From a virus (Duplodnaviria > Heunggongvirae > Uroviricota > Caudoviricetes): 64,000 bases of DNA. The notes under the pieces were generated by a model that searched no databases, was not told the DNA's origin, and worked only from the letters and a program-made list of their open reading frames with translations. A program made the position numbers and the translations under genes. This document shows, piece after piece, positions 17,874 to 64,000 of this stretch. Numbering within the stretch: position 1 is the first letter of the stretch; the number at the start of each line of letters is the position of its first letter. The DNA is taken from positions 11,541 through 75,540 of the IMG/VR virus record IMGVR_UViG_3300037423_000296. One strand, written 5' to 3'.

Positions 17874-19306
17874 GCATGAAGGGCTAGATGACCCCCGTTA
17901 AGAACCCATCTAGCCCTAGTGCTCTTCCGCACGACGGTTTGAGCAGTTAACCAATCAGGCACCTGACAAATGCTATTGGTTCTCTGTGCTTCCGGTTGTC
18001 AGCCTCACAGAGTGGGCTTATGCCTCCGTTATCTCAACCACCATTAGCACGGAAGCTACACTAATGGTGTGTAAAAGTGAAGAGAGCCAGCCGACGCATT
18101 GCATCACAGCAAAGCATTCAGTCTAAATGCCTTTCATCGTTGACTAGACGATTAAGCTCTCCCCAACTTGCGCTCCCAGCGGGAGTTGAACCCGCGCTAA
18201 TACATTGACAATGTATCGTGCTGCCGTAACACTTTGAGAGCAATCGCCGGGTTTTGTTAAGTGGCTCCCTGCTAATACCCGGCTGATTAGCAGAAATCTT
18301 GAGCCGATGAGTGAATGCGCCTACCCATTCCACAGGGCTTTAGTACGCATTCGCTAGTGGAATTCCCTAACTCGCCTTGAGCGTCGGGCTAGCCTCACCA
18401 CGTGTTTTTGTCGTTGCCATGACTAGTATTGGCTTTCCCGTCTCGCCAGACGTTCCACGCAATGAGTAACCTTTGACGTTATCGCCGGTTGCGGTCCTTG
18501 AATGCTACCCGGTAAACCGGACATCTTCACCTAACCTCACTGCCGCTCTATGCCTAAGGATGCTATTTATACTCGCATAGACGAGTGTTGAGGCGCATTA
18601 GCTGTCGTATGCTATGCGAATTGATAGGTCAGTCCGGGGCTCGTTCTACAGGTTCCAGCCTTCGCCACTTCAACCCGCTTCCACCCTAACCATTCCATTC
18701 TGGCTCTCCGCACAAGGGACTAGAACCCAAGCTCTCCTCAACGTGTCACCCCATCCGGTTAATTCCGGTCCTGCCAACCCCAGTTAAAGGCTGACTATGC
18801 TTTCCTGCTTAACGGCAGGCCTATACACTAATGGGAAGCTTATGGGGTGGACGCTAAGACCAGTGTTCTTCATTCCGGGCGTACCGGACTTCCACTTACG
18901 TCTCTTATCTAACACAAGACCCCGCAGAATTTCGAATCGGTGCCAGTTCACCCTGTGATTCTCCATTCTGACCCCGGCTTTTTCTAGCAAGCGTGACCAA
19001 GCCACCGGGGATTTGCTTTTGCTGGTGTGGGTGGCGTTTATACACTCTCCCCTAATCCGGGCGTACCCAGAAGCCACATGCCCATCTTGTCTAGTGTTAG
19101 ACCAGCAATTCGCTATTCAGTTGTCAAGGTGTTGCCTAACTTCCTTGGTTTGTATATCTTAATCTTGCCTTGATTCTCGGAGCTTGTCAAGTAGCTGTGG
19201 GAAGTTTTTCATCATCTCGGCCCACTGCTCAGACTCAGCCTTGAGACACTTGGCACACCGCTCCTCGTGCCAACCAGTAGTCTCACTACCCGGCTTGCAG
19301 TCGCAG

Positions 19307-24656: not shown

Positions 24657-25400
24657 TTACCGGCCCTTCTGCTTGAGCGTACTATCCAAGGAAACCTTAC
24701 CGGAGAATGCAGCCCTCATCAAGCCGGGGAACTGATTCAAGGTAATGATTGACGCAACGGTGTTGTGTCGGAACATCTTGGAAAGCTCGTCGGCAACCCG
24801 CTCATCTGCGACAGACTCAACCCCGACATGGACAGCAGGCTCACGGAGAGCGTCAGCCAAATTTATGTCCAGAGCGAATCCCTTGGTGACCGTGAATCGA
24901 ATTGCCCTGAGAGCCCTCAGCGGGTCTTCTGACAGCCTTTCTAGTGGGTCACCTACAGCCCTAACAATCCGGCGCTTGATGTCCCTAAAGCCGTCGTGAG
25001 GGTCAATGAAGTTACCAGTGCTATCCTTGGCAATGGCATTCATGGTGAAATCCCGCCGCTTTAGGTCGTCGCCAAGCTTACCCGGCTCAACCTTGTCAGG
25101 CCTGCGTCCGTCCGTGTAATCCGACTCCTTGCGAGCCAGCACAAAGTCGGCAGCCATGCCAGGGTAAGTCGGGTGATTCTTCGGGAATTGTCCACGAGCC
25201 GTCAAGAATTCGGGGGTCGTCACGAAAATGGTGAATCCCTGCTTCTTCAGCATGTCCACCATCGTTTGAAACGGATTGAATTCCAGCCCGCCAATTGGGT
25301 TCCAATCGTACTGAGCGAGAACGCAAGTGAAATCAATGTCCTTCGATGGAATACCCAGGATTTCATCCCGAACACAACCGCCTACTTCAAAGAGTTGCAT
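24657..25400 (-). CDS. cca: tRNA nucleotidyltransferase (CCA-adding enzyme / polyA polymerase head domain)
   Basis: GGCVRDEILG..DIDF and RRDFTMNAIA motifs. Confidence 0.85.
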   Translation of the reverse strand: MQLFEVGGCVRDEILGIPSKDIDFTCVLAQYDWNPIGGLEFNPFQTMVDMLKKQGFTIFVTTPEFLTARGQFPKNHPTYPGMAADFVLARKESDYTDGRRPDKVEPGKLGDDLKRRDFTMNAIAKDSTGNFIDPHDGFRDIKRRIVRAVGDPLERLSEDPLRALRAIRFTVTKGFALDINLADALREPAVHVGVESVADERVADELSKMFRHNTVASIITLNQFPGLMRAAFSGKVSLDSTLKQKGR

Positions 25401-44575: not shown

Positions 44576-44851
44576 TTAAACCCAGTCGTTTTCGTTGATG
44601 CCTTCCTTGCCATGTTTGCACAAGTCTACATGACGACCACACCTTGAGCAAATGGCTTCCTGAGATGCGTAGTAGTGCTTAGGGGGAGCGCTAGGCGACT
44701 CCCCCATTACACTCTCAGCCTTATCAGGCTCAGTAGTCGTCATCTTCGTCGTCGTCTTCATCGTACTCTGGACACTCGTAGTACTCGTGGTCATCGTCAC
44801 CGCAATTCTCACAGTACAAAGTGTCGAAGTCGTTCTCGTCCAACTCGCCAA
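44576..44851 (-). CDS. hypothetical Cys-containing protein (true start probably internal)
   Basis: ORF track. Confidence 0.35.
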   Translation of the reverse strand: MASWTRTTSTLCTVRIAVTMTTSTTSVQSTMKTTTKMTTTEPDKAESVMGESPSAPPKHYYASQEAICSRCGRHVDLCKHGKEGINENDWV

Positions 44852-45680
44852 CTACATTGGCATAATCGGACTTGAGCAGAGGAGCGCTGACCTCTTCATC
44901 GGCAACGTCAATTACGACGTAGCGACAAACGCGAATCTTCGCCTCGTTGTGCTCAGTCGGCACAGAGACAACATCGCGAGGGTTGATAGCAACCTTCACA
45001 CGACCATTTCCGTAACCACGGGCATAGTCGAACGTTCCGGCATGCAGACCAGTCGAGCATCCCTCGGCAGGGTTGAATTCAACCTCGCTACGCGGCATCT
45101 CAACCGTGTCACCAATGCGCTGGGGAATCTGCTGGTTCTCGAACAACTCGCCATTGACGATTGCCGTACCAGAGTGCCACGACTTGTAGACCTTGCCGTT
45201 CTCATCCTCCTCAACGTAGAGACCCTTGTAGGCAACAAGGTCACCGTCAGAGGTAATCGTGATTGACGGACGAGCCTTGACCCAGCCGTAAAGCTGCTCA
45301 CGGCTGTGAGGCTCAGGGTTGAGAGACACCTTGTCTAGGAAGTTGACCAAAGGCATGAAGTCTTCGTCAGCCTCAAGCATTCGCAGAATGTGGTCAGTGA
45401 TGGCGTTGTCAACGTGGTCACCGTCGAAGTATACCTTGCCATTGGCAACGGAGATTCGGTCGGTCAGACGCTCAAAACGCTTTGCCACCTCTTCAGCCGG
45501 GTCAAAGAGTCGGACGACAGACTCATCACCGGAAGTAATCCCGGCAACAATCTGGTCCCAATTCTTGTGGTCCTGGTTTGCAACGTACATCTCACCGTCA
45601 ATAAAAGCGGTGACGCTGGACTCATTTCCAACGCTTACGAGATTATACTTGATTGTTCTTCTCCTTCTGGTAAATTGCAT
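44730..45680 (-). CDS. rIIB: rIIB-like protein (by size and position immediately downstream of rIIA-like)
   Basis: 316 aa, overlaps rIIA-like end; acidic C-terminus; no motif-level confirmation. Confidence 0.5.
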   Translation of the reverse strand: MQFTRRRRTIKYNLVSVGNESSVTAFIDGEMYVANQDHKNWDQIVAGITSGDESVVRLFDPAEEVAKRFERLTDRISVANGKVYFDGDHVDNAITDHILRMLEADEDFMPLVNFLDKVSLNPEPHSREQLYGWVKARPSITITSDGDLVAYKGLYVEEDENGKVYKSWHSGTAIVNGELFENQQIPQRIGDTVEMPRSEVEFNPAEGCSTGLHAGTFDYARGYGNGRVKVAINPRDVVSVPTEHNEAKIRVCRYVVIDVADEEVSAPLLKSDYANVVGELDENDFDTLYCENCGDDDHEYYECPEYDEDDDEDDDY

Positions 45681-47559
45681 TCATGTATAGGTAGACATGC
45701 TCTTTATTGCTACCACAGTTACCCCTGGCAAGCGGGTACTTATTGAATGGGTCGGTAATATCTTCCGACTTAATCTCTCCGTGAGCGTACTCGATTGCCC
45801 TGGCAAATTCACACGCCGCGTACCAATCCTTCATGGTGTCGGTGAGCGGTTCCTGCTTCGCATTGCATGCATTGATGAATGCGACCATCTCAGGGTCGTC
45901 AATGCGAGTGGGGTCAAGCTTCTGAGCGTTGACTCTGGAGTAGTAATCTACGTCAGTCATTCTACGCCTATCGGTCTTGGTAAGTCCAGCCTTCGCGAAC
46001 ATTACCTTGTCCTTAATCCACTGCTCCAAATCCTCAGAGTCAGGGTTGGCTTTCTTGAACCTATCAAGCTCATTCTTGTACAGAATGACGATTTCGTAAT
46101 CCTTGAGAATAGTGGTGAGGTTCTTCCACTTAATCTTCCGGCGACCCGGCACAATGTACATGACATTCTTGGTGTCATCCAAATCAGCCTTGGTTGTCGT
46201 GTATCCGTGCGCAGTCAGGGTGTTGTACTCAACAACCTTCTTGTCAGACTTGGCACGAACTAGCTTGATAGCCTTGATAGTCTCAAAGGGCACCGTCCGA
46301 ATTTCGGCCAGACGCTTCGTGTCAGGGTGCTTCTCCATCAAGAATACCTTGTACGGACGCTCGCCTGCCGGAAGATTCTCAATGTAGTGACGAATCTTCT
46401 GTCGGTAGTTCGTAGGAAGCTTCTCACCAGTAAACCCAGTGATGGTCAGATATTGAGAGAAATTCTTCCAGTCGATGTGCCTCGGGAAGGTTACTGCATG
46501 ACGCTCATGGCTGTGAGCGAAAGACATCGCTTCCGGCGCTTCACCGTAATTGAATTCCCACGTCTGCTTCAGTTCCTCACCCTTGTAGGTGTAATTGTGA
46601 GAAATCATGAATGAACGCTTGTCATGAGTCTTGAGAGCTTCAAGGTAGGTGGGCTGGGCATCAATCTCGGCCTGGATTTGGTTGGCAATTCCTGCCTTAG
46701 CCTCTGCCGACAGCTTGGAGATTGTCTCCTTGGTCTTGTCGGTGTACATCAATTCCTCGCGGTTCGGAGGAAATGCCACATCACCAATCTCGACAAAGGC
46801 TACCAAGTGATAATCGCCGTAGTGTTCGGCAAGACCGTCAGCCTTGTAGGGAACATTTCCCATAACTACGTACGATGTACCCTGACCGGGAAGAGCGACA
46901 ATGTTGTCAGTGACCCACAAAGCATCCTTGTGGTCTCCGATGAATTCCGGCTGCTTGTCGTCAACAAGAACAGTACCCGGAGTCCAGTACTTGAAGAAAT
47001 GCTCCACCCTTGCAGTGAAGTCACTAGTGTACTTGACGGGAATGATGATTTCCACACCAGACGGCTCATCGGTAATCGACGTGTCAACAATCTCCATTAC
47101 GCCAGAGCCGTACTCATCCTTGCTCACCATTACAAGAATCTTCACACCTTGGTGAATGGATACAATCTGGAATTGAGCCGTGTAAGTCAAGCCAGACTTA
47201 CTTCCAAGACCCAGCATTCCAACCTGAGAATCAGTATCTCTCTTGGTTGAATTCCAGTATTGAGAGTAGACGTTCTCAATGAAATCTACAGACATTCCAT
47301 TGCCAAAATCCCGAATTTTGAAGAACGGGCTAAGCGCGCTGGGACTGTGAATCTCGATTGGAACATTTGCCTTGCCAGCGTCAATATGAGCATCACGAGC
47401 ATTCGTGCTGTATTCTCGAATGATTGCCTTGATTGGGTCTGCGTACATATCTGTCAAGGTGCTCATGGCGAATTGTAGACTGTGCATATCCATCGTCATC
47501 TCAATACGCTTACCGCCGAGATTGCCGCTGGTTTGAATGTCTAGTGGTGCTGGACGCAT
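45643..47559 (-). CDS. rIIA: rIIA-like protein with N-terminal GHKL (HATPase_c) ATPase domain
   Basis: N box REYSTNARDA, G1 box IRDFGNGMS, G2 box GMLGLGSKSG. Confidence 0.75.
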   Translation of the reverse strand: MRPAPLDIQTSGNLGGKRIEMTMDMHSLQFAMSTLTDMYADPIKAIIREYSTNARDAHIDAGKANVPIEIHSPSALSPFFKIRDFGNGMSVDFIENVYSQYWNSTKRDTDSQVGMLGLGSKSGLTYTAQFQIVSIHQGVKILVMVSKDEYGSGVMEIVDTSITDEPSGVEIIIPVKYTSDFTARVEHFFKYWTPGTVLVDDKQPEFIGDHKDALWVTDNIVALPGQGTSYVVMGNVPYKADGLAEHYGDYHLVAFVEIGDVAFPPNREELMYTDKTKETISKLSAEAKAGIANQIQAEIDAQPTYLEALKTHDKRSFMISHNYTYKGEELKQTWEFNYGEAPEAMSFAHSHERHAVTFPRHIDWKNFSQYLTITGFTGEKLPTNYRQKIRHYIENLPAGERPYKVFLMEKHPDTKRLAEIRTVPFETIKAIKLVRAKSDKKVVEYNTLTAHGYTTTKADLDDTKNVMYIVPGRRKIKWKNLTTILKDYEIVILYKNELDRFKKANPDSEDLEQWIKDKVMFAKAGLTKTDRRRMTDVDYYSRVNAQKLDPTRIDDPEMVAFINACNAKQEPLTDTMKDWYAACEFARAIEYAHGEIKSEDITDPFNKYPLARGNCGSNKEHVYLYMNAIYQKEKNNQV

Positions 47560-52995: not shown

Positions 52996-53147
52996 AATAA
53001 GCAGCGCTCTTCCGCTGAGCTACCCGAACTTTTACATAAGGGGCTGGATTCGAACCAGCGACCTCTGCTGTCGGTAGCGCTCTGCCATTGAGCTACAACC
53101 CCGGTTGCCCGAAGCTGGCGGGACTCGAACCCGCAACCTCTACCACG
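52996..53147 (-). pseudogene. cluster of degenerate tRNA-like pieces (5' half GUUCGGG-UAGCUCAGCGGAAGAGC; near-complete tRNA-like with T-arm GCUGG-UUCGAAU-CCAGC but acceptor missing about 4 nt; T-arm GCGGG-UUCGAGU-CCCGC)
   Basis: manual folding; no canonical cloverleaf recoverable. Confidence 0.35.
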
Positions 53148-54697: not shown

Positions 54698-54712
54698 CTC
54701 TTCCTCTCTAAT

Positions 54713-54790
54713 TGTGGAGTCGCGGGGAATTGAACCCCGGTCCTTTGCATTCAATCGTACATCCGAATTACAGCCATCCCTATTCTTTAG
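54713..54790 (-). ncRNA. tRNA-like fragment (perfect T-arm CGGGG-UUCAAUU-CCCCG; no acceptor partner found)
   Basis: manual reading. Confidence 0.3.
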
Positions 54791-55108
54791 ACCTTTACGA
54801 TTGAAGGTGGTCCCAGGATAAGTCCGTCTACCTCTGGCCTTTTAAACTGATGCCGAGCAGTAGGGGGGGTGAACAGTTTGTAGGCGAAGCCACTGTTCGA
54901 TTTCCACCACTGACCTTTCTGTTCCTAGGCAGTCAGCGCCCGATGCTCAATCCTCAGACTGAAGCAAGGTCGTACTCAGCGCAAAGCGCCTCGTACTCTG
55001 CATCAATGTTGTCAGTTGCAGTTATTGTTTGTCAAGTGTTTAACGACTCTCTCAACGAAGTCGGGCTGCGTTCATACTCTCTAGTTCAAAGTCGATACCT
55101 TTCGACCC

Positions 55109-55423
55109 CTAAGGCAAATATACTTTTGCCAAGTTATTGTCTACAAGTAGTTTATTGAGACTTTCAGTACCGGCGAAAACCTCTGCCAGCCAGCGACCGT
55201 ACTTCTCTTTCTTGTAGGTATTGATTGTAACTGTTGGATTCTTTGCAAAGAAGGACTTTACGAAGGCTGTTGCCTCTGCCCATCCTACCTGACCACGCTC
55301 TGGCGTGTCAATTCCATACAATCTGAAAACCGTATCAACTCTAATATCAAATCCCAGGTCTACTGTTAGTTCTACAGTATCACCATCTACCGCTCTAACA
55401 AAGTCTGCCTTGTATTGGTACAT
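55109..55423 (-). CDS. thermonuclease (staphylococcal nuclease-like, SNase domain)
   Basis: VRAVDGDTVEL..RLYGIDTPE..KYGRWLA motifs. Confidence 0.8.
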   Translation of the reverse strand: MYQYKADFVRAVDGDTVELTVDLGFDIRVDTVFRLYGIDTPERGQVGWAEATAFVKSFFAKNPTVTINTYKKEKYGRWLAEVFAGTESLNKLLVDNNLAKVYLP

Positions 55424-56137: not shown

Positions 56138-56407
56138 CTATGCTTGAGTTGGAGTGAATGTTCCGAACTGTGGACCTGATACGCTTGCATATGCATATTG
56201 GAATTGCCAGCCATCGGCACCCAATAGTTCTGTCAGAGAATCAATGATTGCCTGATAACCCTCTTCCTGAGTTCCTGGCAACGTTCCAAAGCTAGGCTTA
56301 ATTTCAAGCCAATCCGCTGCCCATTCTTGAGGGTCTTGTGGGTCGTAATACCTAACAAATCTAACTGTAAGTTCCTGACCCATTGTGACAGTCTCAGTAA
56401 ATGGCAC
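56138..56407 (-). CDS. hypothetical protein
   Basis: ORF track. Confidence 0.45.
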   Translation of the reverse strand: MPFTETVTMGQELTVRFVRYYDPQDPQEWAADWLEIKPSFGTLPGTQEEGYQAIIDSLTELLGADGWQFQYAYASVSGPQFGTFTPTQA

Positions 56408-56424: not shown

Positions 56425-56805
56425 CTACGTGCGCGCTGATGGAGTCGAACCACCCGAGCCCGAAGACAACTGTTTTACAGACAGTCCCGCTACCTCTACG
56501 GAATAAGCACGCATTGCAAGTTGGTTTCTAATCAACTTGCTCTTGTAGTAGCTTACTCGACGCCTTCTCAGTCTGTCAAGCTTATCCGGCAGAGTTTCTG
56601 TAGTTTCATCTTGAACTACTTCTGTTCTTGCCGCTTGCCAGCTTGAGAATGACCCCAAGAACAAGGCTACCATGGATACTACACTTACGAAAACCACACT
56701 CTCAAGCCAGCCAATGTAGTAACTCAAGATAGTGAATGGCAACCAGAATAGTGTACACCATCCGTGGAATGCTCTCAAAACCCGTGGATTTTCGTAAAAT
56801 TTCAT
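56425..56805 (-). CDS. membrane protein (2 TM); 3' part of ORF overlaps tRNA-Tyr so true end uncertain
   Basis: ORF track; overlap with 56430..56512 tRNA. Confidence 0.35.
   Translation of the reverse strand: MKFYENPRVLRAFHGWCTLFWLPFTILSYYIGWLESVVFVSVVSMVALFLGSFSSWQAARTEVVQDETTETLPDKLDRLRRRRVSYYKSKLIRNQLAMRAYSVEVAGLSVKQLSSGSGGSTPSART
56430..56512 (-). tRNA. tRNA-Tyr (GUA), long variable arm
   Basis: manual cloverleaf; loop CUGUAAA. Confidence 0.8.
56560..56590 (-). promoter_or_regulatory. promoter TTGACA-N18-TAAGCT upstream of tRNA-Tyr
   Basis: consensus match. Confidence 0.45.
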
Positions 56806-56838
56806 GATACATCTAGCTTACCATAGTAAGCACGTGGG

Positions 56839-56906
56839 GGCAGGGCCGGATTCGAACCGGAATACGAGATTATGAGCCTCGTGTGATGCCGTTTCACTAC
56901 CCTGCA
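56839..56906 (-). tRNA. tRNA with anticodon CAU (Met or Ile2), short/non-canonical T-stem
   Basis: manual cloverleaf; loop CUCAUAA; acceptor GCAGGGU/GCCCUGC. Confidence 0.55.
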
Positions 56907-56908
56907 AG

Positions 56909-56981
56909 TAGCTGAGGTCAGAATCGAACTGACTATATAGTTCCTTATGAGAGAACTCGGATACCTTATCTCGTCCCAGCC
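56909..56981 (-). tRNA. second tRNA with anticodon CAU (Met or Ile2), atypical D-arm
   Basis: manual cloverleaf; loop CUCAUAA; acceptor GGCUGGG/CUCAGCU. Confidence 0.5.
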
Positions 56982-57056: not shown

Positions 57057-58277
57057 TCACTTGTCTAGAACATTGAACTTCGTGAAGTCCCAGCGCTTGA
57101 ATACTCCCTTGGTATCAACAGGCTCAACACCATAAGAAATCTGACCAACGTGAGGGTCTGATGCGGCAGTGCGCATAATACCTCTGTTTGCCATATCCTT
57201 GGCGAATGCCTTGACATCAATTGTGCCACTGGTAATTGCTTGTGGAGCACCATCTGCCGGTACGTATGCAACGTAGTCAGGAGCACCATAATATACATCC
57301 CACTGGCGTCCATCAACTGTCACATTCTTGGCCTTGAGGTCACCATATGGTGACTGCCCCTGATTGTGAGTCCAAATCATCAACTCGGTCTGGTAATTTC
57401 CATCACCAATACCATTGAGCCAAATGTCGAATGCCTCTTCGTAAACACATCCGGCGCAATCAGTTGGGCTTTGGTGAGCAAACTCTACCTTTAGCTGTGG
57501 GAATGAGGATAGCTTAGGGTCAAGCGTGTAATCCTCTGGACCTCCCCAGTCGTGGTAAATCTTCCTAATGGAAGGGTAAGCCTGAACTGCTCCATCGCCA
57601 TGGTCGGTAGCCTTGATTTCGACGTACCAATCGTCCTTGGAGTAGGCACAGAGATTGGAGCTATAGTCATTCTTTACTGCCCACTGTTCGGCAGAAATGT
57701 CATACCCGTCTCCAATTGCGTCTGAGCCTTCTCCAGTGAAGTGGGCAATTGTGTTTGTTGGGCTGCATGACTTGTCAGCAGGAATCGTTGGACTTGCGGT
57801 TGGTGTTACCGTTGTCGTAGGAGTTGGCGTATTTGTCTCCGTTGGTGACGGAGTTGAGCTAGTCACTGTCGGTGACGGACTTGGCTCGATTGGCGCTCCC
57901 ACATAAGTGTAAACAACGTAATACTTGATGACAATTCCAGACTTGAACTTGGTGCCATCATGCCACAAGAACTTCACTGTATAGCTTGTGTCTGTGGTCT
58001 TGGATGGGTCAACCGTTGCATTCTGCCCCGGTCCTCCAGGGGTTACAACGATTGATGTTGGCTTGACTCCCAAGCCATGATTCACCGTACATGCGCTAGA
58101 AACATTGACTGTACACTGTTCGCTACGGCCAAGTGTCTGCTGAGTCGGTGGTGTTGTTGAATCATTAGCCTTTGCATTGAATGCGCTCATTAGCGCAATA
58201 ATGAAAGCTAGAGCCAGGGCGGCTACGAAAACTACTCGTACATTTGGCTTGCTAATGGCGGGCTTAGCGTGCTTCAT
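57057..58277 (-). CDS. secreted glycoside hydrolase, GH12-like catalytic domain, with N-terminal domain and Pro/Thr-rich linker
   Basis: signal peptide; PT linker; ELMIWTHNQG motif characteristic of GH12; AAGGAGA RBS before MKHAKP. Confidence 0.65.
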   Translation of the reverse strand: MKHAKPAISKPNVRVVFVAALALAFIIALMSAFNAKANDSTTPPTQQTLGRSEQCTVNVSSACTVNHGLGVKPTSIVVTPGGPGQNATVDPSKTTDTSYTVKFLWHDGTKFKSGIVIKYYVVYTYVGAPIEPSPSPTVTSSTPSPTETNTPTPTTTVTPTASPTIPADKSCSPTNTIAHFTGEGSDAIGDGYDISAEQWAVKNDYSSNLCAYSKDDWYVEIKATDHGDGAVQAYPSIRKIYHDWGGPEDYTLDPKLSSFPQLKVEFAHQSPTDCAGCVYEEAFDIWLNGIGDGNYQTELMIWTHNQGQSPYGDLKAKNVTVDGRQWDVYYGAPDYVAYVPADGAPQAITSGTIDVKAFAKDMANRGIMRTAASDPHVGQISYGVEPVDTKGVFKRWDFTKFNVLDK

Positions 58278-58352
58278 GTATTTCTCCTTATTTGTGATTG
58301 ACCTCACGGGTCTCTCACAAGCATAACATTAAGGTTACGATGAAGCAAGATG

Positions 58353-58425
58353 TACCCCTGACAGGATTCGAACCTGCATACGCGCTGGGTAGAAACCAGC
58401 CGTTCATCCTTTGAACTACAGAGGC
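58353..58425 (-). tRNA. tRNA-Arg (UCU)
   Basis: manual cloverleaf; loop UUUCUAC. Confidence 0.7.
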
Positions 58426-58678: not shown

Positions 58679-59113
58679 TCAGTAGTGATACCACCAAGAG
58701 GTGTCATTGCTGTGGTCAGCCTTCATCCTCTTCTTACCGGACTTTTTCAAGCATCCGGCGCAAATCTGAATTTCACGAGCCTCAAGCCAAGCTGCGTGCT
58801 CTTCTTGAGAATCGAACGGCATGTATCCGTGGAACATGCCGTCGTAGTTGGGGTTGTTGCGGTAGCACCACTTGTCTCGTACCTGGTCAAGGTAGATTCC
58901 GTTGTGAGTCGGCATGTAACGTGCGCCAATCCAGACGTAAACGTGGTTCTTACCGTCGTTTCCAGGGCAACCCGGCTTTTTCTTGGGTGCCTTCTTGGAC
59001 TTGTTCTTCTTGTGAGGTGTTTCCTCGTAACCGGCGCTCTTGTCGTGCCGGTTGTCTCGGGTGATGAGACTTGTTGCGTTCCAGTTGTCAGAACGTTCTT
59101 TCAATGTTGCCAT
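58679..59113 (-). CDS. hypothetical basic protein with Cys/His and aromatic-rich C-terminus
   Basis: ORF track. Confidence 0.5.
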   Translation of the reverse strand: MATLKERSDNWNATSLITRDNRHDKSAGYEETPHKKNKSKKAPKKKPGCPGNDGKNHVYVWIGARYMPTHNGIYLDQVRDKWCYRNNPNYDGMFHGYMPFDSQEEHAAWLEAREIQICAGCLKKSGKKRMKADHSNDTSWWYHY

Positions 59114-60780: not shown

Positions 60781-60975
60781 CTACGAATTCTTTCCTCGTA
60801 GCCACCAGTCGGCCAAATCTACAGAGCAGTTTCCGCAGATTTCTCCTCTATCATCCACTGCCAGAACCGGCCCATTCTCATTGAACTGAGACTCAAGCCT
60901 TAGACTGACAATGCCAAGCGCCTTAAACTGAGAGACTACCTTGTTACAGTTCGGCCTTGCGCAAATTGTTGCCAT
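60781..60975 (-). CDS. zinc-ribbon protein (start at MATICARPNC)
   Basis: CARPNC..CGNC. Confidence 0.4.
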   Translation of the reverse strand: MATICARPNCNKVVSQFKALGIVSLRLESQFNENGPVLAVDDRGEICGNCSVDLADWWLRGKNS

Positions 60976-61516
60976 CAAGCACCTCCTTAAGATAGTTGTA
61001 TCTAACAATGTTAAACTTAGCATCTTCAAGAGCGTTGTGCAAGCCTTCCGGCTGCTTAGGCATGTCACAGTACTTAGCTAGTTTGTGTAGCTGCTTGATA
61101 TCGTAGGTCACCATCGGTACCTCGGGTGGAAGGTCAACCATCTTGCCAAAGAGTTGGGCTAGGCATACATGGTCATAGGCACTGTACCATGCCCATAGTT
61201 CTGCTGGCTGTCCTTGGCCGACAAATTCCAAGACCCCGCGCTTAATCTCCTCGCGGCTCATGGCTGCCGGGTCTGTGATGTCGAAGTCTCGATAGACAGG
61301 AAATCCTTCGGCATCGACAACAGCGTACGACTCATGGTCAATAGAAGACATAACATTCTCCATGAGCCACCAATGAGTTGCTACCCTGGAAGTGTCGAAT
61401 TCATTAGACACAGCGTAGAAAGTCTCATCTGTCTCGTAGTTCACGATTCCGATACTGATAAGGTCGATAATCTTTCCATCTTCATGGAATTCACAGTCAT
61501 AGAAAAACTTACTCAT
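60944..61516 (-). CDS. DEDDh-family 3'-5' exonuclease (DnaQ/RNase T-like)
   Basis: Exo I YDCEFHEDG, Exo II AWYSAYD, Exo III HNALEDAKFN motifs. Confidence 0.8.
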   Translation of the reverse strand: MSKFFYDCEFHEDGKIIDLISIGIVNYETDETFYAVSNEFDTSRVATHWWLMENVMSSIDHESYAVVDAEGFPVYRDFDITDPAAMSREEIKRGVLEFVGQGQPAELWAWYSAYDHVCLAQLFGKMVDLPPEVPMVTYDIKQLHKLAKYCDMPKQPEGLHNALEDAKFNIVRYNYLKEVLDGNNLRKAEL

Positions 61517-63438: not shown

Positions 63439-64000
63439 TTACAGACGACCGGCTGAGAAGTCTGCGAAAACCTTTGGCGCGTTGCTGTCAAAGCCAACGA
63501 AATCCATCTGGTTCGCGTCCTTAGGGTCGGCCACAGTGTACTCGGTAGCAGCTACACCGAAGCTTGCCAGCTTCGCATTAATTCCCATCTTCTGGCGGTA
63601 GTCGGCCAAGGCCTGGGTAGGCTTACGACCGGTGTTAGCCTCGTTGTCGGTAATCATTGCGAACGTGTCAACCTCAATACGGTTCTTGATAGCGTAGTCG
63701 ATTGCAGCGGAAATGTTCGTTGCTCCGAAGGAACGCTGAACCCTTTGCATTGCACCTTCCAAGTTAGTCTTGGCCGTAATTCCAAGGTCAACGATGCTGG
63801 TTCCGAACCCTACAATCTCGCTGTACTTTTCAGTACGAGCAAGGTTCATTCCCATAGCCGCTGCAACCTGCGCGGCAGAAAGGTCTAGACCGTTAGCAGC
63901 GAATCCGGCCATGGAGCCAGAAACGTCAACTGCGAGCATAGTCCTCTTGCCGGAAGGCTCGACGTGCTTGAAAGCCTCGTAGAAGCCCTCGTTGAGAGCG
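63439..64000 (-). CDS. von Willebrand factor A (VWA) domain protein, 5' end beyond window
   Basis: MIDAS motif DVSGSM; reading frame stays open to the window edge. Confidence 0.7.
   Translation of the reverse strand, partial: ALNEGFYEAFKHVEPSGKRTMLAVDVSGSMAGFAANGLDLSAAQVAAAMGMNLARTEKYSEIVGFGTSIVDLGITAKTNLEGAMQRVQRSFGATNISAAIDYAIKNRIEVDTFAMITDNEANTGRKPTQALADYRQKMGINAKLASFGVAATEYTVADPKDANQMDFVGFDSNAPKVFADFSAGRL

What the first reader, a model, noticed from the sequence alone, without database searches (positions are those of the whole stretch)
57057..58277. Secreted GH12-type glycoside hydrolase with Pro/Thr linker encoded by a phage
The product has a signal peptide, an N-terminal domain, a PT-rich linker, and a C-terminal domain containing ELMIW. 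I recall ELMIW as the GH12 endo-beta-1,4-glucanase catalytic signature. In a phage of a filamentous actinomycete this could target the cellulose-like hyphal-tip glycan, or a capsule or EPS, to aid adsorption or release. It is not a typical endolysin fold.
Basis: partly seen in the sequence, partly recalled or inferred. Interest (0 to 1): 0.65.

Follow-up and report, generated by a model that had tools for sequence, protein, structure and literature searches.

The report
Phage-encoded exported lectin–GH12 glycanase
A large, tRNA-rich phage of an actinobacterium carries a real, apparently active family-12 glycoside hydrolase that is exported from the infected cell and fused to a lectin-like targeting domain; it most likely cuts a sugar polymer on or around the host cell, and no sequenced cultured phage has a detectable homologue.

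Summary
Window 57057-58277 (-) encodes a 406-aa protein with four parts: a Sec-type signal peptide, a 90-aa beta-sandwich, a Pro/Thr/Ser linker and a C-terminal GH12 domain. GH12 is supported by Pfam PF01670 (39.4 bits, cut-off 27), by PDB sequence hits to GH12 endoglucanases (E 1.6e-12) and by the predicted fold (TM 0.80). The nucleophile E298 (ELMIW), acid/base E385 (YGVEP) and D284 are invariant in 18 homologues.

The window is phage: RIIA/RIIB, 33 tRNAs and a tmRNA. The gene holds the same slot in at least six related tRNA-rich phage contigs. tblastn against 50,697 sequenced phage records found nothing.

New points:
- The N-domain has no Pfam family, has a tail-fibre-tip / H-type-lectin-like fold, and recurs on GH12, GH16, GH6, GH26, GH114 and beta-helix enzymes.
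- The nearest cellular relatives are in Propionibacteriales (Nocardioides, Friedmanniella), in one lineage inside a surface-polysaccharide biosynthesis cluster.
- In another phage the same architecture lies between endolysin and holin.

Best reading: an exported accessory depolymerase of a host envelope or matrix glycan. A virion or adsorption role is unlikely. The substrate and the host are unproven.

The parts
57057..58277 (-). Complete CDS: 406 codons plus stop at 57057-57059
   Evidence: ORF list. The database protein P0001 is identical. Translation checked.
58284..58289 (-). Shine-Dalgarno AAGGAG, 6 nt upstream of ATG 58277
   Evidence: Read from the sequence.
58167..58277 (-). Sec-type signal peptide, aa 1-37: MKHAKPAISKPNVR / VVFVAALALAFIIALMSAF / NAKA, with predicted cleavage after A37
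   Evidence: The hydrophobic core and A-x-A site are conserved in homologues. AF2 models a helix at 11-33. No signal-peptide predictor was available, so the cleavage site is inferred.
57894..58142 (-). N-terminal beta-sandwich, aa 46-128, with invariant C55/C63 and the H-G-L-G-x-x-P motif; lectin-like targeting module
57771..57890 (-). Pro/Thr/Ser-rich linker, aa 130-169
   Evidence: Composition. pLDDT <50 for 136-160. Length and sequence vary among homologues.
57060..57770 (-). GH12 catalytic domain, aa 170-406 (beta-jelly roll), with Cys171/210 and Cys274/277
   Evidence: Pfam PF01670, 39.4 bits. PDB phmmer hits. Foldseek top 39 hits are all GH12, TM up to 0.80.
57384..57386 (-). Codon of E298, predicted catalytic nucleophile (QTELMIW)
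   Evidence: Aligns with E120 of 1oa4. Invariant in 18 homologues. Codon checked.
57123..57125 (-). Codon of E385, predicted general acid/base (YGVEP)
   Evidence: Aligns with E203 of 1oa4. Invariant. Codon checked.
58352..58425 (-). tRNA-Arg(tct) immediately upstream; marks the conserved slot of the gene in the tRNA array
   Evidence: ARAGORN and Rfam. Same neighbour in L006, L003 and L015.
56835..56981 (-). Two tRNA-Met genes immediately downstream
   Evidence: ARAGORN. tRNA-Met also follows the gene in L006 and L015.

Best explanation
The gene encodes a modular enzyme that is exported across the membrane of the infected cell. The Sec system exports the precursor and signal peptidase I removes residues 1-37. 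This step is inferred from sequence.

Outside the membrane, three Cys pairs can form disulfides. The N-terminal lectin-like beta-sandwich holds the protein on a glycan. The flexible Pro/Thr linker lets the C-terminal GH12 domain reach the polymer. The GH12 domain then cleaves beta-glycosidic bonds by the retaining double-displacement mechanism of family 12, using E298 as nucleophile and E385 as acid/base. The residues are shown; the chemistry is inferred from the family.

The most likely substrate is a beta-linked polysaccharide of the host's own envelope or extracellular matrix, probably a substituted beta-1,4 backbone. The phage would gain by having this layer thinned during and after lysis, so that progeny escape and reach neighbouring cells. 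That is an accessory lysis or spread factor, comparable in role (not in chemistry) to mycobacteriophage LysB or to the soluble polymer hydrolases of Bacillus phage phiNIT1.

The gene was exchanged with Propionibacteriales-type hosts.
For: GH12 identity and an intact active site:
-.

Export signal and conserved A-x-A site:
-.

Selection in phages:
- The gene keeps the same slot (Ro60 ... tRNA-Arg > GH12 > tRNA-Met ... tmRNA) in the window, L001, L003, L004, L006 and L015, at 55-76% protein identity.

Lysis link:
- P0019 has the same signal-lectin-PT-GH12 architecture at 48% identity. It is tightly packed between a GH19 endolysin and an r1t-type holin in phage contig L019.
- A more distant phage GH12 lies about 1 kb after a holin-like gene and an amidase endolysin in L010.

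Host-glycan link:
- The Friedmanniella-type cellular homologues (L013, L017) lie next to a Hexapep acetyltransferase, a beta-helix/NosD protein, a polysaccharide pyruvyl transferase, GT2 and GT4 glycosyltransferases and dTDP-sugar genes.
- Related phages carry a beta-helix protein homologous to the one in that cluster (E 6e-14).
- Related phages also carry an SLT transglycosylase and an exported Rpf-like lipoprotein near the GH12 gene.

The N-domain as a glycan-targeting module:
- Fold matches to fibre tips and H-type lectins.
- It is fused to at least seven kinds of glycan-degrading domains.

Exchange with hosts:
- Phage P0038 is 56% identical over its full length to Nocardioides sp. BP30 P0034.
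- Phage and cellular sequences interleave in a rough NJ tree.
Against: - No substrate was tested.
- The polysaccharide-cluster context comes from one cellular lineage only (two syntenic contigs). It is absent in Nocardioides BP30 (L005), in L014 and in Kribbella (L021).
- In the window itself the gene is not next to an endolysin or holin. It sits among tRNAs and small genes of unknown function.
- Homologues of the beta-helix, SLT and Rpf genes seen in relatives are absent from the window.
- The architecture of signal peptide, binding module, PT linker and catalytic domain is also the standard architecture of actinobacterial secreted plant-biomass glycanases.
- All characterized GH12 enzymes that I know of act on cellulose, xyloglucan or mixed-linkage glucan, not on bacterial envelope polymers.
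- Signal-peptide cleavage and sugar binding by the N-domain are inferred, not computed with dedicated predictors.
Confidence: 0.55

Rival explanations
1. Auxiliary metabolic gene. The phage makes the infected cell secrete a beta-glucanase that digests plant or fungal polysaccharide (cellulose, xyloglucan, mixed-linkage glucan) in soil, releasing sugars that fuel phage replication.
For: Every solved structural and sequence relative is a cellulase or xyloglucanase. The architecture (signal peptide, binding module, PT linker) is typical of secreted actinobacterial biomass enzymes. Host-type homologues exist in ordinary chromosomal contexts in Nocardioides, Kribbella and L014. The gene lies in the accessory, non-structural part of the genome.
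Against: An enzyme secreted into soil gives a diffuse, slow return within one latent period. Homologues lie in lysis cassettes and next to tail or structural genes, not next to sugar uptake or catabolic genes. The clade replaces the conserved GH12 Asn of the NN.W motif with an invariant Glu (SAE.W), which hints at a non-canonical substrate. One cellular lineage places the gene inside a polysaccharide biosynthesis locus.
Confidence: 0.2
2. Receptor-destroying or exclusion enzyme. The same exported glycanase strips the polysaccharide that the phage uses as its receptor from the infected cell and its debris. This prevents superinfection and stops progeny being trapped on dead cells.
For: The N-domain has the fold of tail-fibre receptor-binding tips. 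That would fit recognition of the same glycan as the virion. Export begins before lysis (signal peptide).
Against: The same N-domain is found on cellular enzymes, for example in the Kribbella chromosome, so it need not derive from this phage's fibre. No similarity to any protein in the window was found, but the window lacks the tail genes. There is no direct evidence on the receptor.
Confidence: 0.12
3. Virion-associated depolymerase used for adsorption.
For: In L008 and L016 more distant homologues lie among structural genes, next to a collagen/beta-helix fibre and next to a 1067-aa GDSL protein.
Against: All family members have an N-terminal signal peptide. They also have conserved Cys pairs that suit an extracytoplasmic protein. 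There is no virion-anchor domain and no trimeric beta-helix. The window gene is far from any structural module, inside the tRNA array.
Confidence: 0.05
4. Neutral cargo. A recently captured host gene with no role in the phage life cycle.
For: Phage and host sequences interleave, so transfers are frequent.
Against: The gene is kept at the same locus across phages whose copies have diverged to 55-76% identity, with catalytic residues, Cys pairs and the signal peptidase site all conserved. It has been duplicated or fused in some relatives (L020, P0006).
Confidence: 0.05

Closest known systems
Actinobacterial GH12 endo-beta-1,4-glucanases: Streptomyces lividans CelB2 (PDB 1nlr), Streptomyces sp. 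11AG8 Cel12A (1oa4), Acidothermus GuxA GH12 domain (7mkr)
   Same: Same family by profile, fold and catalytic residues (E-x-M-I-W nucleophile, G-x-E acid/base, D-I-W helper Asp). Also secreted, with an N-terminal disulfide and a linker to an accessory module.
   Different: Only ~22-24% identical. Pfam aligns only the C-terminal half. The conserved Asn of the NN.W substrate-binding motif is an invariant Glu (SAE.W) in this clade. The accessory module is N-terminal and is not a recognised CBM. The gene is encoded by a phage.
GH12 xyloglucanases: NopAA effector domain of Sinorhizobium fredii (6sdu) and Bacillus licheniformis XG12 (2jem)
   Same: These are the best structural matches (Foldseek E 3e-14, TM 0.80). 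They cut substituted beta-1,4-glucan backbones, which is the kind of substrate proposed here.
   Different: 14-22% identity. Whether the phage enzyme tolerates branches was not tested.
Mycobacteriophage LysB (mycolyl-arabinogalactan esterase; PMC5707550)
   Same: A third lysis-cassette enzyme that removes an envelope layer outside the peptidoglycan. The homologue P0019 occupies the same place, between endolysin and holin.
   Different: LysB is a lipase/esterase, not a glycosidase. I recall it as lacking a signal peptide. The window gene itself is not in a lysis cassette.
Soluble polymer hydrolases of Bacillus phages: GH32 levan-degrading enzyme of SP10/phiNIT1/SPG24 (PMC4595243) and, from my own knowledge, phiNIT1 PghP
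   Same: Non-virion, host-derived enzymes proposed to clear the host's extracellular polymer for the progeny phages.
   Different: A different enzyme family. Those phage GH32 proteins lack a signal peptide (PMC4595243). There is no lectin module.
Tail-fibre tip domain of Acinetobacter phage AP22 gp53 (4mtm) and H-type lectins (Helix pomatia agglutinin 2ccv, discoidin I 2w94, SLL-2 3wmp)
   Different: 4-16% identity and no sequence-profile link. Here the domain sits on a secreted enzyme, not on a fibre. Sugar binding and trimerisation are untested.

Membership tests
Glycoside hydrolase family 12 (Pfam PF01670, clan GH-C) | Profile match above the curated threshold | tested here: met
   39.4 bits against a gathering score of 27, E 9.7e-10, aa 276-394. 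17 PDB GH12 chains at E <= 1.
Glycoside hydrolase family 12 (Pfam PF01670, clan GH-C) | Beta-jelly-roll fold with a long substrate cleft | tested here: met
   AF2 model with domain pLDDT ~80-95. The top 39 Foldseek PDB hits are all GH12, with target TM 0.58-0.80; the first GH11 hit is at rank 40. This rests on a predicted structure, not a solved one.
Glycoside hydrolase family 12 (Pfam PF01670, clan GH-C) | Catalytic nucleophile Glu in E-[ILV]-M-[IV]-W and acid/base Glu in G-x-E near the C-terminus | tested here: met
   E298 aligns with E120 and E385 with E203 of 1oa4. Both are invariant in 18 homologues, as is D284 of FDIW. Codons verified.
Glycoside hydrolase family 12 (Pfam PF01670, clan GH-C) | Conserved N-terminal N-N-x-W substrate-binding motif | tested here: not met
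   The motif is replaced by S-A-E-[QHELM]-W throughout this clade, whereas Kribbella, P0051 and P0054 keep NN.W. The Trp is kept. This is a clade-level variation, not a reason to exclude the protein from the family.
Glycoside hydrolase family 12 (Pfam PF01670, clan GH-C) | Retaining endo-beta-glycanase activity | not testable with these tools
   Needs an enzyme assay.
Sec-exported protein with a signal peptidase I site | Basic n-region, hydrophobic h-region, A-x-A at -3/-1; no lipobox; no twin-arginine motif | tested here: met
   K2, K5, K10 and R14; a 19-residue core with mean hydropathy 2.8; A35-K-A37. The A-x-A site is kept in nearly all homologues. There is no Cys at +1 and no RR. No dedicated predictor (such as SignalP) was available, and an uncleaved signal anchor is not excluded.
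Phage endolysin | Peptidoglycan-cleaving catalytic domain | tested here: not met
   Only GH12 is detected. No amidase, lysozyme, transglycosylase or peptidase domain is present.
Virion-associated depolymerase / tailspike | N-terminal particle-anchor domain, trimeric beta-helix, cytoplasmic assembly (no signal peptide), gene in the tail module | tested here: not met
   The protein has a signal peptide, a jelly-roll catalytic domain and a location in the tRNA array.
Accessory lysis enzyme of a lysis cassette (LysB-like role) | Gene located between or next to endolysin and holin | tested here: inconclusive
   Met for homologue P0019 in L019 (GH19 endolysin, then GH12, then holin) and approximately for L010. 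Not met in the window, where the neighbours are tRNAs, small ORFs without family matches (58679-59113, 56138-56407) and a conserved 2-TM protein with no holin family match.
H-type lectin / gp53-like tail-fibre C-terminal domain | Six-stranded beta-sandwich of that topology; sugar-binding site at the protomer interface of a trimer | tested here: inconclusive

The most novel reading that the evidence does not exclude
Actinobacteria that carry a polysaccharide layer outside the peptidoglycan may be attacked by phages using a previously unrecognised third class of lysis or escape factor. This would be a Sec-exported 'envelope glycanase', made of a fibre-tip-like lectin module and a GH12 domain of the SAE.W clade. 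It would be borrowed from the host's own polysaccharide-processing enzymes. In small phages it is placed between endolysin and holin. In ~130-kb tRNA-rich phages it is uncoupled from the lysis cassette.
Probability: 0.3. Interest if true: 0.65.

Novelty: new member of a known kind. Interest (0 to 1): 0.48.

Why it matters
If the enzyme digests a host surface polysaccharide, three things follow:
- It identifies an unstudied barrier, and the phage countermeasure to it, in soil Propionibacteriales and related actinobacteria.
- It adds a glycosidase counterpart to LysB-type accessory lysis enzymes.
- It provides a ready-made two-module reagent (lectin plus hydrolase) for probing or removing that polymer.

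If the enzyme is instead a plant-glucan hydrolase, it would be a clean, full-length, phage-resident candidate for testing the much-debated idea that soil viruses carry carbon-degrading auxiliary genes. Here the context is unambiguous: a conserved locus in ~130-kb phage contigs, rather than read-level 'phageome' annotation.

Either way, the N-terminal domain is an unnamed family found on many glycanases and deserves a description.

Tried and rejected
- **Cultured phages.** Megablast of the locus found only tRNA matches. tblastn of the whole protein, of the N-domain alone, of homologue P0019 and of the distant phage GH12 from L010 found nothing in 50,697 records. No annotated relative could be used.
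- **PHROGs.** No meaningful family.
- **N-domain by sequence.** No Pfam hit. No PDB hit better than E 0.07.
- **Literature.**
  - The search for phage GH12 returned one false hit, which was GH120.
  - It also returned one read-level 'phageome' list.
  - No characterised phage GH12 was found in the library searched.
- **Collection scans.**
  - The metagenome-contig scan gave one locus.
  - The genome-contig scan gave one locus. Its patterns were narrow, so a systematic neighbourhood census was not possible.
- **afdb50.** The fold library was unavailable.
- **Neighbours seen in relatives.** I looked in the window for the beta-helix, SLT and Rpf genes and found none.
- **A second GH12 paralogue.** I looked for one like that of L020 and found none.
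- **The conserved 2-TM protein downstream (56425-56805).** I tested whether it is a known holin. It has no Pfam or PHROG match and no similarity to the L019 holin.
- **Readings rejected.**
  - Endolysin, because there is no peptidoglycan-cleaving domain.
  - Tailspike, because of the signal peptide and the wrong fold.
Full report
**1. The observation**

The ORF table shows one long frame at 57057..58307 on the minus strand. It is preceded by AAGGAG (58284-58289) at a spacing of 6 nt. The identical 406-aa protein is called on a 75.5-kb JGI contig (P0001), and homologues all start MKHAKP.

- **Signal peptide (residues 1-37).**
  - It has a lysine/arginine n-region and a 19-residue hydrophobic core with mean hydropathy 2.8.
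  - It ends in A-K-A before N38.
  - The A-x-A is kept in nearly all of 18 homologues, even though the rest of the peptide varies.
- **Beta-sandwich (residues ~46-128).** It is modelled with high confidence.
- **Linker (residues 130-169).** It is Pro/Thr/Ser-rich, predicted disordered, and variable in length among homologues.
- **Catalytic domain (residues 170-406).** It contains QTELMIW.

**2. Is it GH12?**

Yes.
- Pfam PF01670 matches at 39.4 bits against a gathering score of 27, with E 9.7e-10.
- phmmer against all PDB chains finds 17 GH12 enzymes at E <= 1. The best are the Acidothermus GuxA GH12 domain (7mkr, E 1.6e-12) and the Streptomyces enzymes 1oa4 and 1nlr.
- In the printed alignment to 1oa4, the query's E298 falls on E120 and E385 on E203. 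From the literature as I know it, these are the nucleophile and the acid/base of the Streptomyces GH12 enzymes.
- E298, E385 and D284 of FDIW are invariant in an alignment of 18 full-length homologues.
- An AlphaFold2 model (mean pLDDT 79, domain mostly 80-95) matches solved GH12 structures. The top 39 Foldseek hits are all GH12. The best are the xyloglucanase domain of NopAA (E 3e-14, target TM 0.80) and the Bacillus licheniformis xyloglucanase.

One family motif differs. The N-terminal NN.W motif of classical GH12 reads S-A-E-x-W throughout this clade. More distant relatives (Kribbella, P0051, P0054, the L020 paralogue) keep NN.W. I take this as a clade signature that may reflect a different substrate. 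It was not tested.

**3. Is it a phage, and which?**

The window carries 33 tRNA genes and a tmRNA. It also carries RIIA and RIIB homologues, a tRNA nucleotidyltransferase, DUF932, a metallophosphoesterase and an SPFH protein with PHROG matches, and the end of a Ro60 gene. G+C is ~50%.

The best RIIA matches are the ~130-kb tRNA-rich Streptomyces phages (Jay2Jay, Mildred21, Gilson and others), but at only 35-36% identity. Megablast finds only tRNAs. So this is an uncultured lineage that resembles those phages in style.

The 'filamentous actinomycete' host is an assumption. The enzyme's nearest cellular relatives are all in Propionibacteriales:
- Nocardioides sp. BP30 (53% identity over the GH12 domain).
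- Nocardioides sp. Iso805N.
- A Friedmanniella MAG.

**4. Conservation in phages**

Full-length homologues at 55-76% identity lie on long contigs of the same phage type: L001 (130 kb), L003 (79 kb), L004 (47 kb) and L006 (IMG/VR). The order is the same in each: Ro60, small genes, tRNA-Arg or other tRNAs, GH12, tRNA-Met, more tRNAs, then a tmRNA with a nearly identical tag peptide.

Variants on the theme:
- L015, a 129-kb contig of the same type, has a GH12 of the same clade in the same slot. Its N-terminal region is instead that of the Nocardioides enzyme, and the protein is 56% identical to it over the whole length.
- L020 has two adjacent lectin-GH12 genes.
- P0006 is a fused lectin-GH12-linker-GH12 protein.

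A rough neighbour-joining tree interleaves phage and cellular sequences. The gene is therefore host-derived, exchanged more than once, and maintained in phages.

By contrast, tblastn of the protein against 50,697 sequenced phage records found nothing. The same was true for its N-domain, for P0019 and for a distant phage GH12. Only 6 of 2.9 million IMG/VR contigs matched.

**5. The N-terminal domain**

It has no Pfam, PHROG or PDB sequence match. A profile search over 1.8 billion representative proteins found 129 hits. Among the 111 hits scanned, the domain, usually right after a signal peptide, precedes the following catalytic domains:
- GH12 (14 proteins).
- GH16 (3 proteins).
- Beta-helix (3 proteins).
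- GH6, GH26, GH114 and GHL15 (one protein each).
- SKN1-type domains (2 proteins).

It is therefore a portable accessory module of glycan-degrading enzymes.

Its model (pLDDT 91) is closest to the following:
- The cyanophage Pam1 tailspike receptor-binding domain.
- R-type pyocin fibre tips.
- The H-type lectins discoidin I, SLL-2 and Helix pomatia agglutinin.

In the viral structure library the hits are tail fibres, minor tail proteins, 'gp53-like C-terminal domain' and 'H-type lectin domain' proteins. Carbohydrate binding is the natural inference, but it was not shown.

The same lectin-PT-GH12 architecture also exists in the chromosome of Kribbella antibiotica among housekeeping genes (31% identity). 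The module is therefore not phage-specific.

**6. What it acts on and why**

Three lines of context point to a bacterial envelope or matrix glycan rather than plant biomass.

(a) Lysis-cassette position.
- In phage contig L019, P0019 has the same architecture at 48% identity.
- It is packed between a GH19 endolysin and an r1t-type holin, with a 2-nt gap to the holin. This is the position LysB has in mycobacteriophages (PMC5707550).
- In L010 a more distant phage GH12 lies about 1 kb after a holin-like gene and an amidase endolysin.

(b) Polysaccharide-locus position in cells.
- In two Friedmanniella-type contigs the cellular homologues lie in a polysaccharide locus; on L013 there are two in tandem.
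- Next to them are a Hexapep acetyltransferase, a beta-helix/NosD protein, a pyruvyl transferase and GT2 and GT4 glycosyltransferases.
- Upstream on L013 there are dTDP-sugar, aminotransferase and methyltransferase genes.
- This is where processing hydrolases of exopolysaccharide systems usually sit.

(c) Other envelope enzymes near the gene in related phages.
- The related tRNA-rich phages carry a beta-helix protein near the GH12 gene. It is homologous to the beta-helix of the cellular cluster (E 6e-14).
- They also carry a PG_binding+SLT transglycosylase and an Rpf-like protein with a lipoprotein signal.
- Other phage homologues sit beside GDSL/SGNH hydrolases and a GH16.

Against this:
- Clue (b) is effectively one lineage.
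- Other cellular homologues have uninformative neighbours.
- The window itself lacks the beta-helix, SLT and Rpf genes and shows no endolysin or holin next to the gene.
- All characterised GH12 enzymes that I know of act on cellulose, xyloglucan or mixed-linkage glucans.

**7. Mechanism proposed**

What is shown: an intact GH12 active site, an export-type N-terminus, a lectin-like fold, and a conserved phage locus.

What is inferred:
- Sec export and cleavage after A37.
- Disulfide formation: C55-C63, C171-C210, C274-C277.
- Lectin-mediated docking on a glycan.
- Retaining endo-cleavage of a beta-linked, probably substituted, backbone.
- Loosening of the host's outer polysaccharide layer, so that progeny escape and spread.

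I give this 0.55. The other readings are:
- The soil-carbon AMG reading: 0.2.
- A receptor-destroying or exclusion role, with the same chemistry but a different benefit: about 0.1.
- A virion-borne adsorption enzyme: unlikely, because of the signal peptide and the location.
- Neutral cargo: unlikely, given conservation of the locus, the catalytic residues and the Cys pairs.

**8. Novelty and score**

The protein is a member of a known enzyme family with a standard modular layout. Phage-borne polymer hydrolases and soil-virus glycosidases are known kinds, so I rate it 'new member of a known kind'.

What is new:
- The absence of any homologue detectable by tblastn in sequenced cultured phages.
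- The SAE.W clade shared by Propionibacteriales and their presumed phages.
- The unnamed lectin-like module.
- The lysis-cassette placement in one phage lineage.

Interest is moderate (0.48). The finding is solid and testable, but the key functional claim remains inference.

Noticed in passing
window 18533-18586 (-): Rfam Pistol ribozyme match just above threshold: 37.9 bits against a gathering score of 34.5, E 0.0024. It lies about 290 nt from tRNA-Asp at 18170-18241.
   Followed up: no
window 54712-55109 (-): A phage-encoded tmRNA (Rfam 96 bits) with the unusual tag ATDNIDAEYEALCAEYDLASV*. Nearly the same tag occurs in relatives L001, L006 and L015; L003 has a different one. The SNase-like ORF 55109-55423 ends exactly where the tmRNA begins.
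   Followed up: partly
window 56425-56805 (-): A small protein with two transmembrane segments and a charged tail. It is conserved (57-95% identity) in L001-L004, L006 and L020, always downstream of the GH12 gene. Its reading frame runs into tRNA-Tyr (56429-56512). It has no Pfam or PHROG match and is not similar to the L019 holin.
   Followed up: partly
window 63439-63939 (-), running off the window end: The vWA domain of a Ro60/TROVE orthologue (E 7.6e-45). Full Ro60 genes lie upstream of the GH12 gene in L003, L004 and L015. Together with a tRNA nucleotidyltransferase (24657-25400), an Rv2179c-like 3'-5' exoribonuclease (60944-61516), 33 tRNAs and the tmRNA, this makes a large RNA-handling toolkit. 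No Y-RNA family reached the Rfam threshold.
   Followed up: no
window 44730-47559 (-): Adjacent RIIA (638 aa) and RIIB (316 aa) homologues. RIIA is only ~36% identical to those of Streptomyces tRNA-rich phages.
   Followed up: partly
L020 980-1903 and 2006-3232; protein P0006: Some relatives carry two lectin-GH12 genes side by side. The first has no PT linker and has a classical NN.W GH12 domain. One protein (651 aa) fuses lectin-GH12-linker-GH12.
   Followed up: partly
L001 18409-19026; L001 5418-7025; L001 14292-15011: Related phages encode three further envelope-directed proteins in the same tRNA-rich region: an Rpf-like transglycosylase with a lipoprotein-type signal peptide, a 535-aa beta-helix protein, and a PG_binding_1+SLT protein. 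None has a homologue in the window.
   Followed up: partly
L013 10001-12638 and flanks; L017: Friedmanniella-type genomes have tandem GH12 genes inside a polysaccharide biosynthesis cluster containing a pyruvyl transferase, GT2/GT4 glycosyltransferases, an acetyltransferase, a beta-helix protein and dTDP-sugar genes. This may be a processing-hydrolase role for GH12 that I have not seen described.
   Followed up: partly
window 53037-53102 (-): An extra weak tRNA-like match in Rfam (34.6 bits) that ARAGORN did not report.
   Followed up: no
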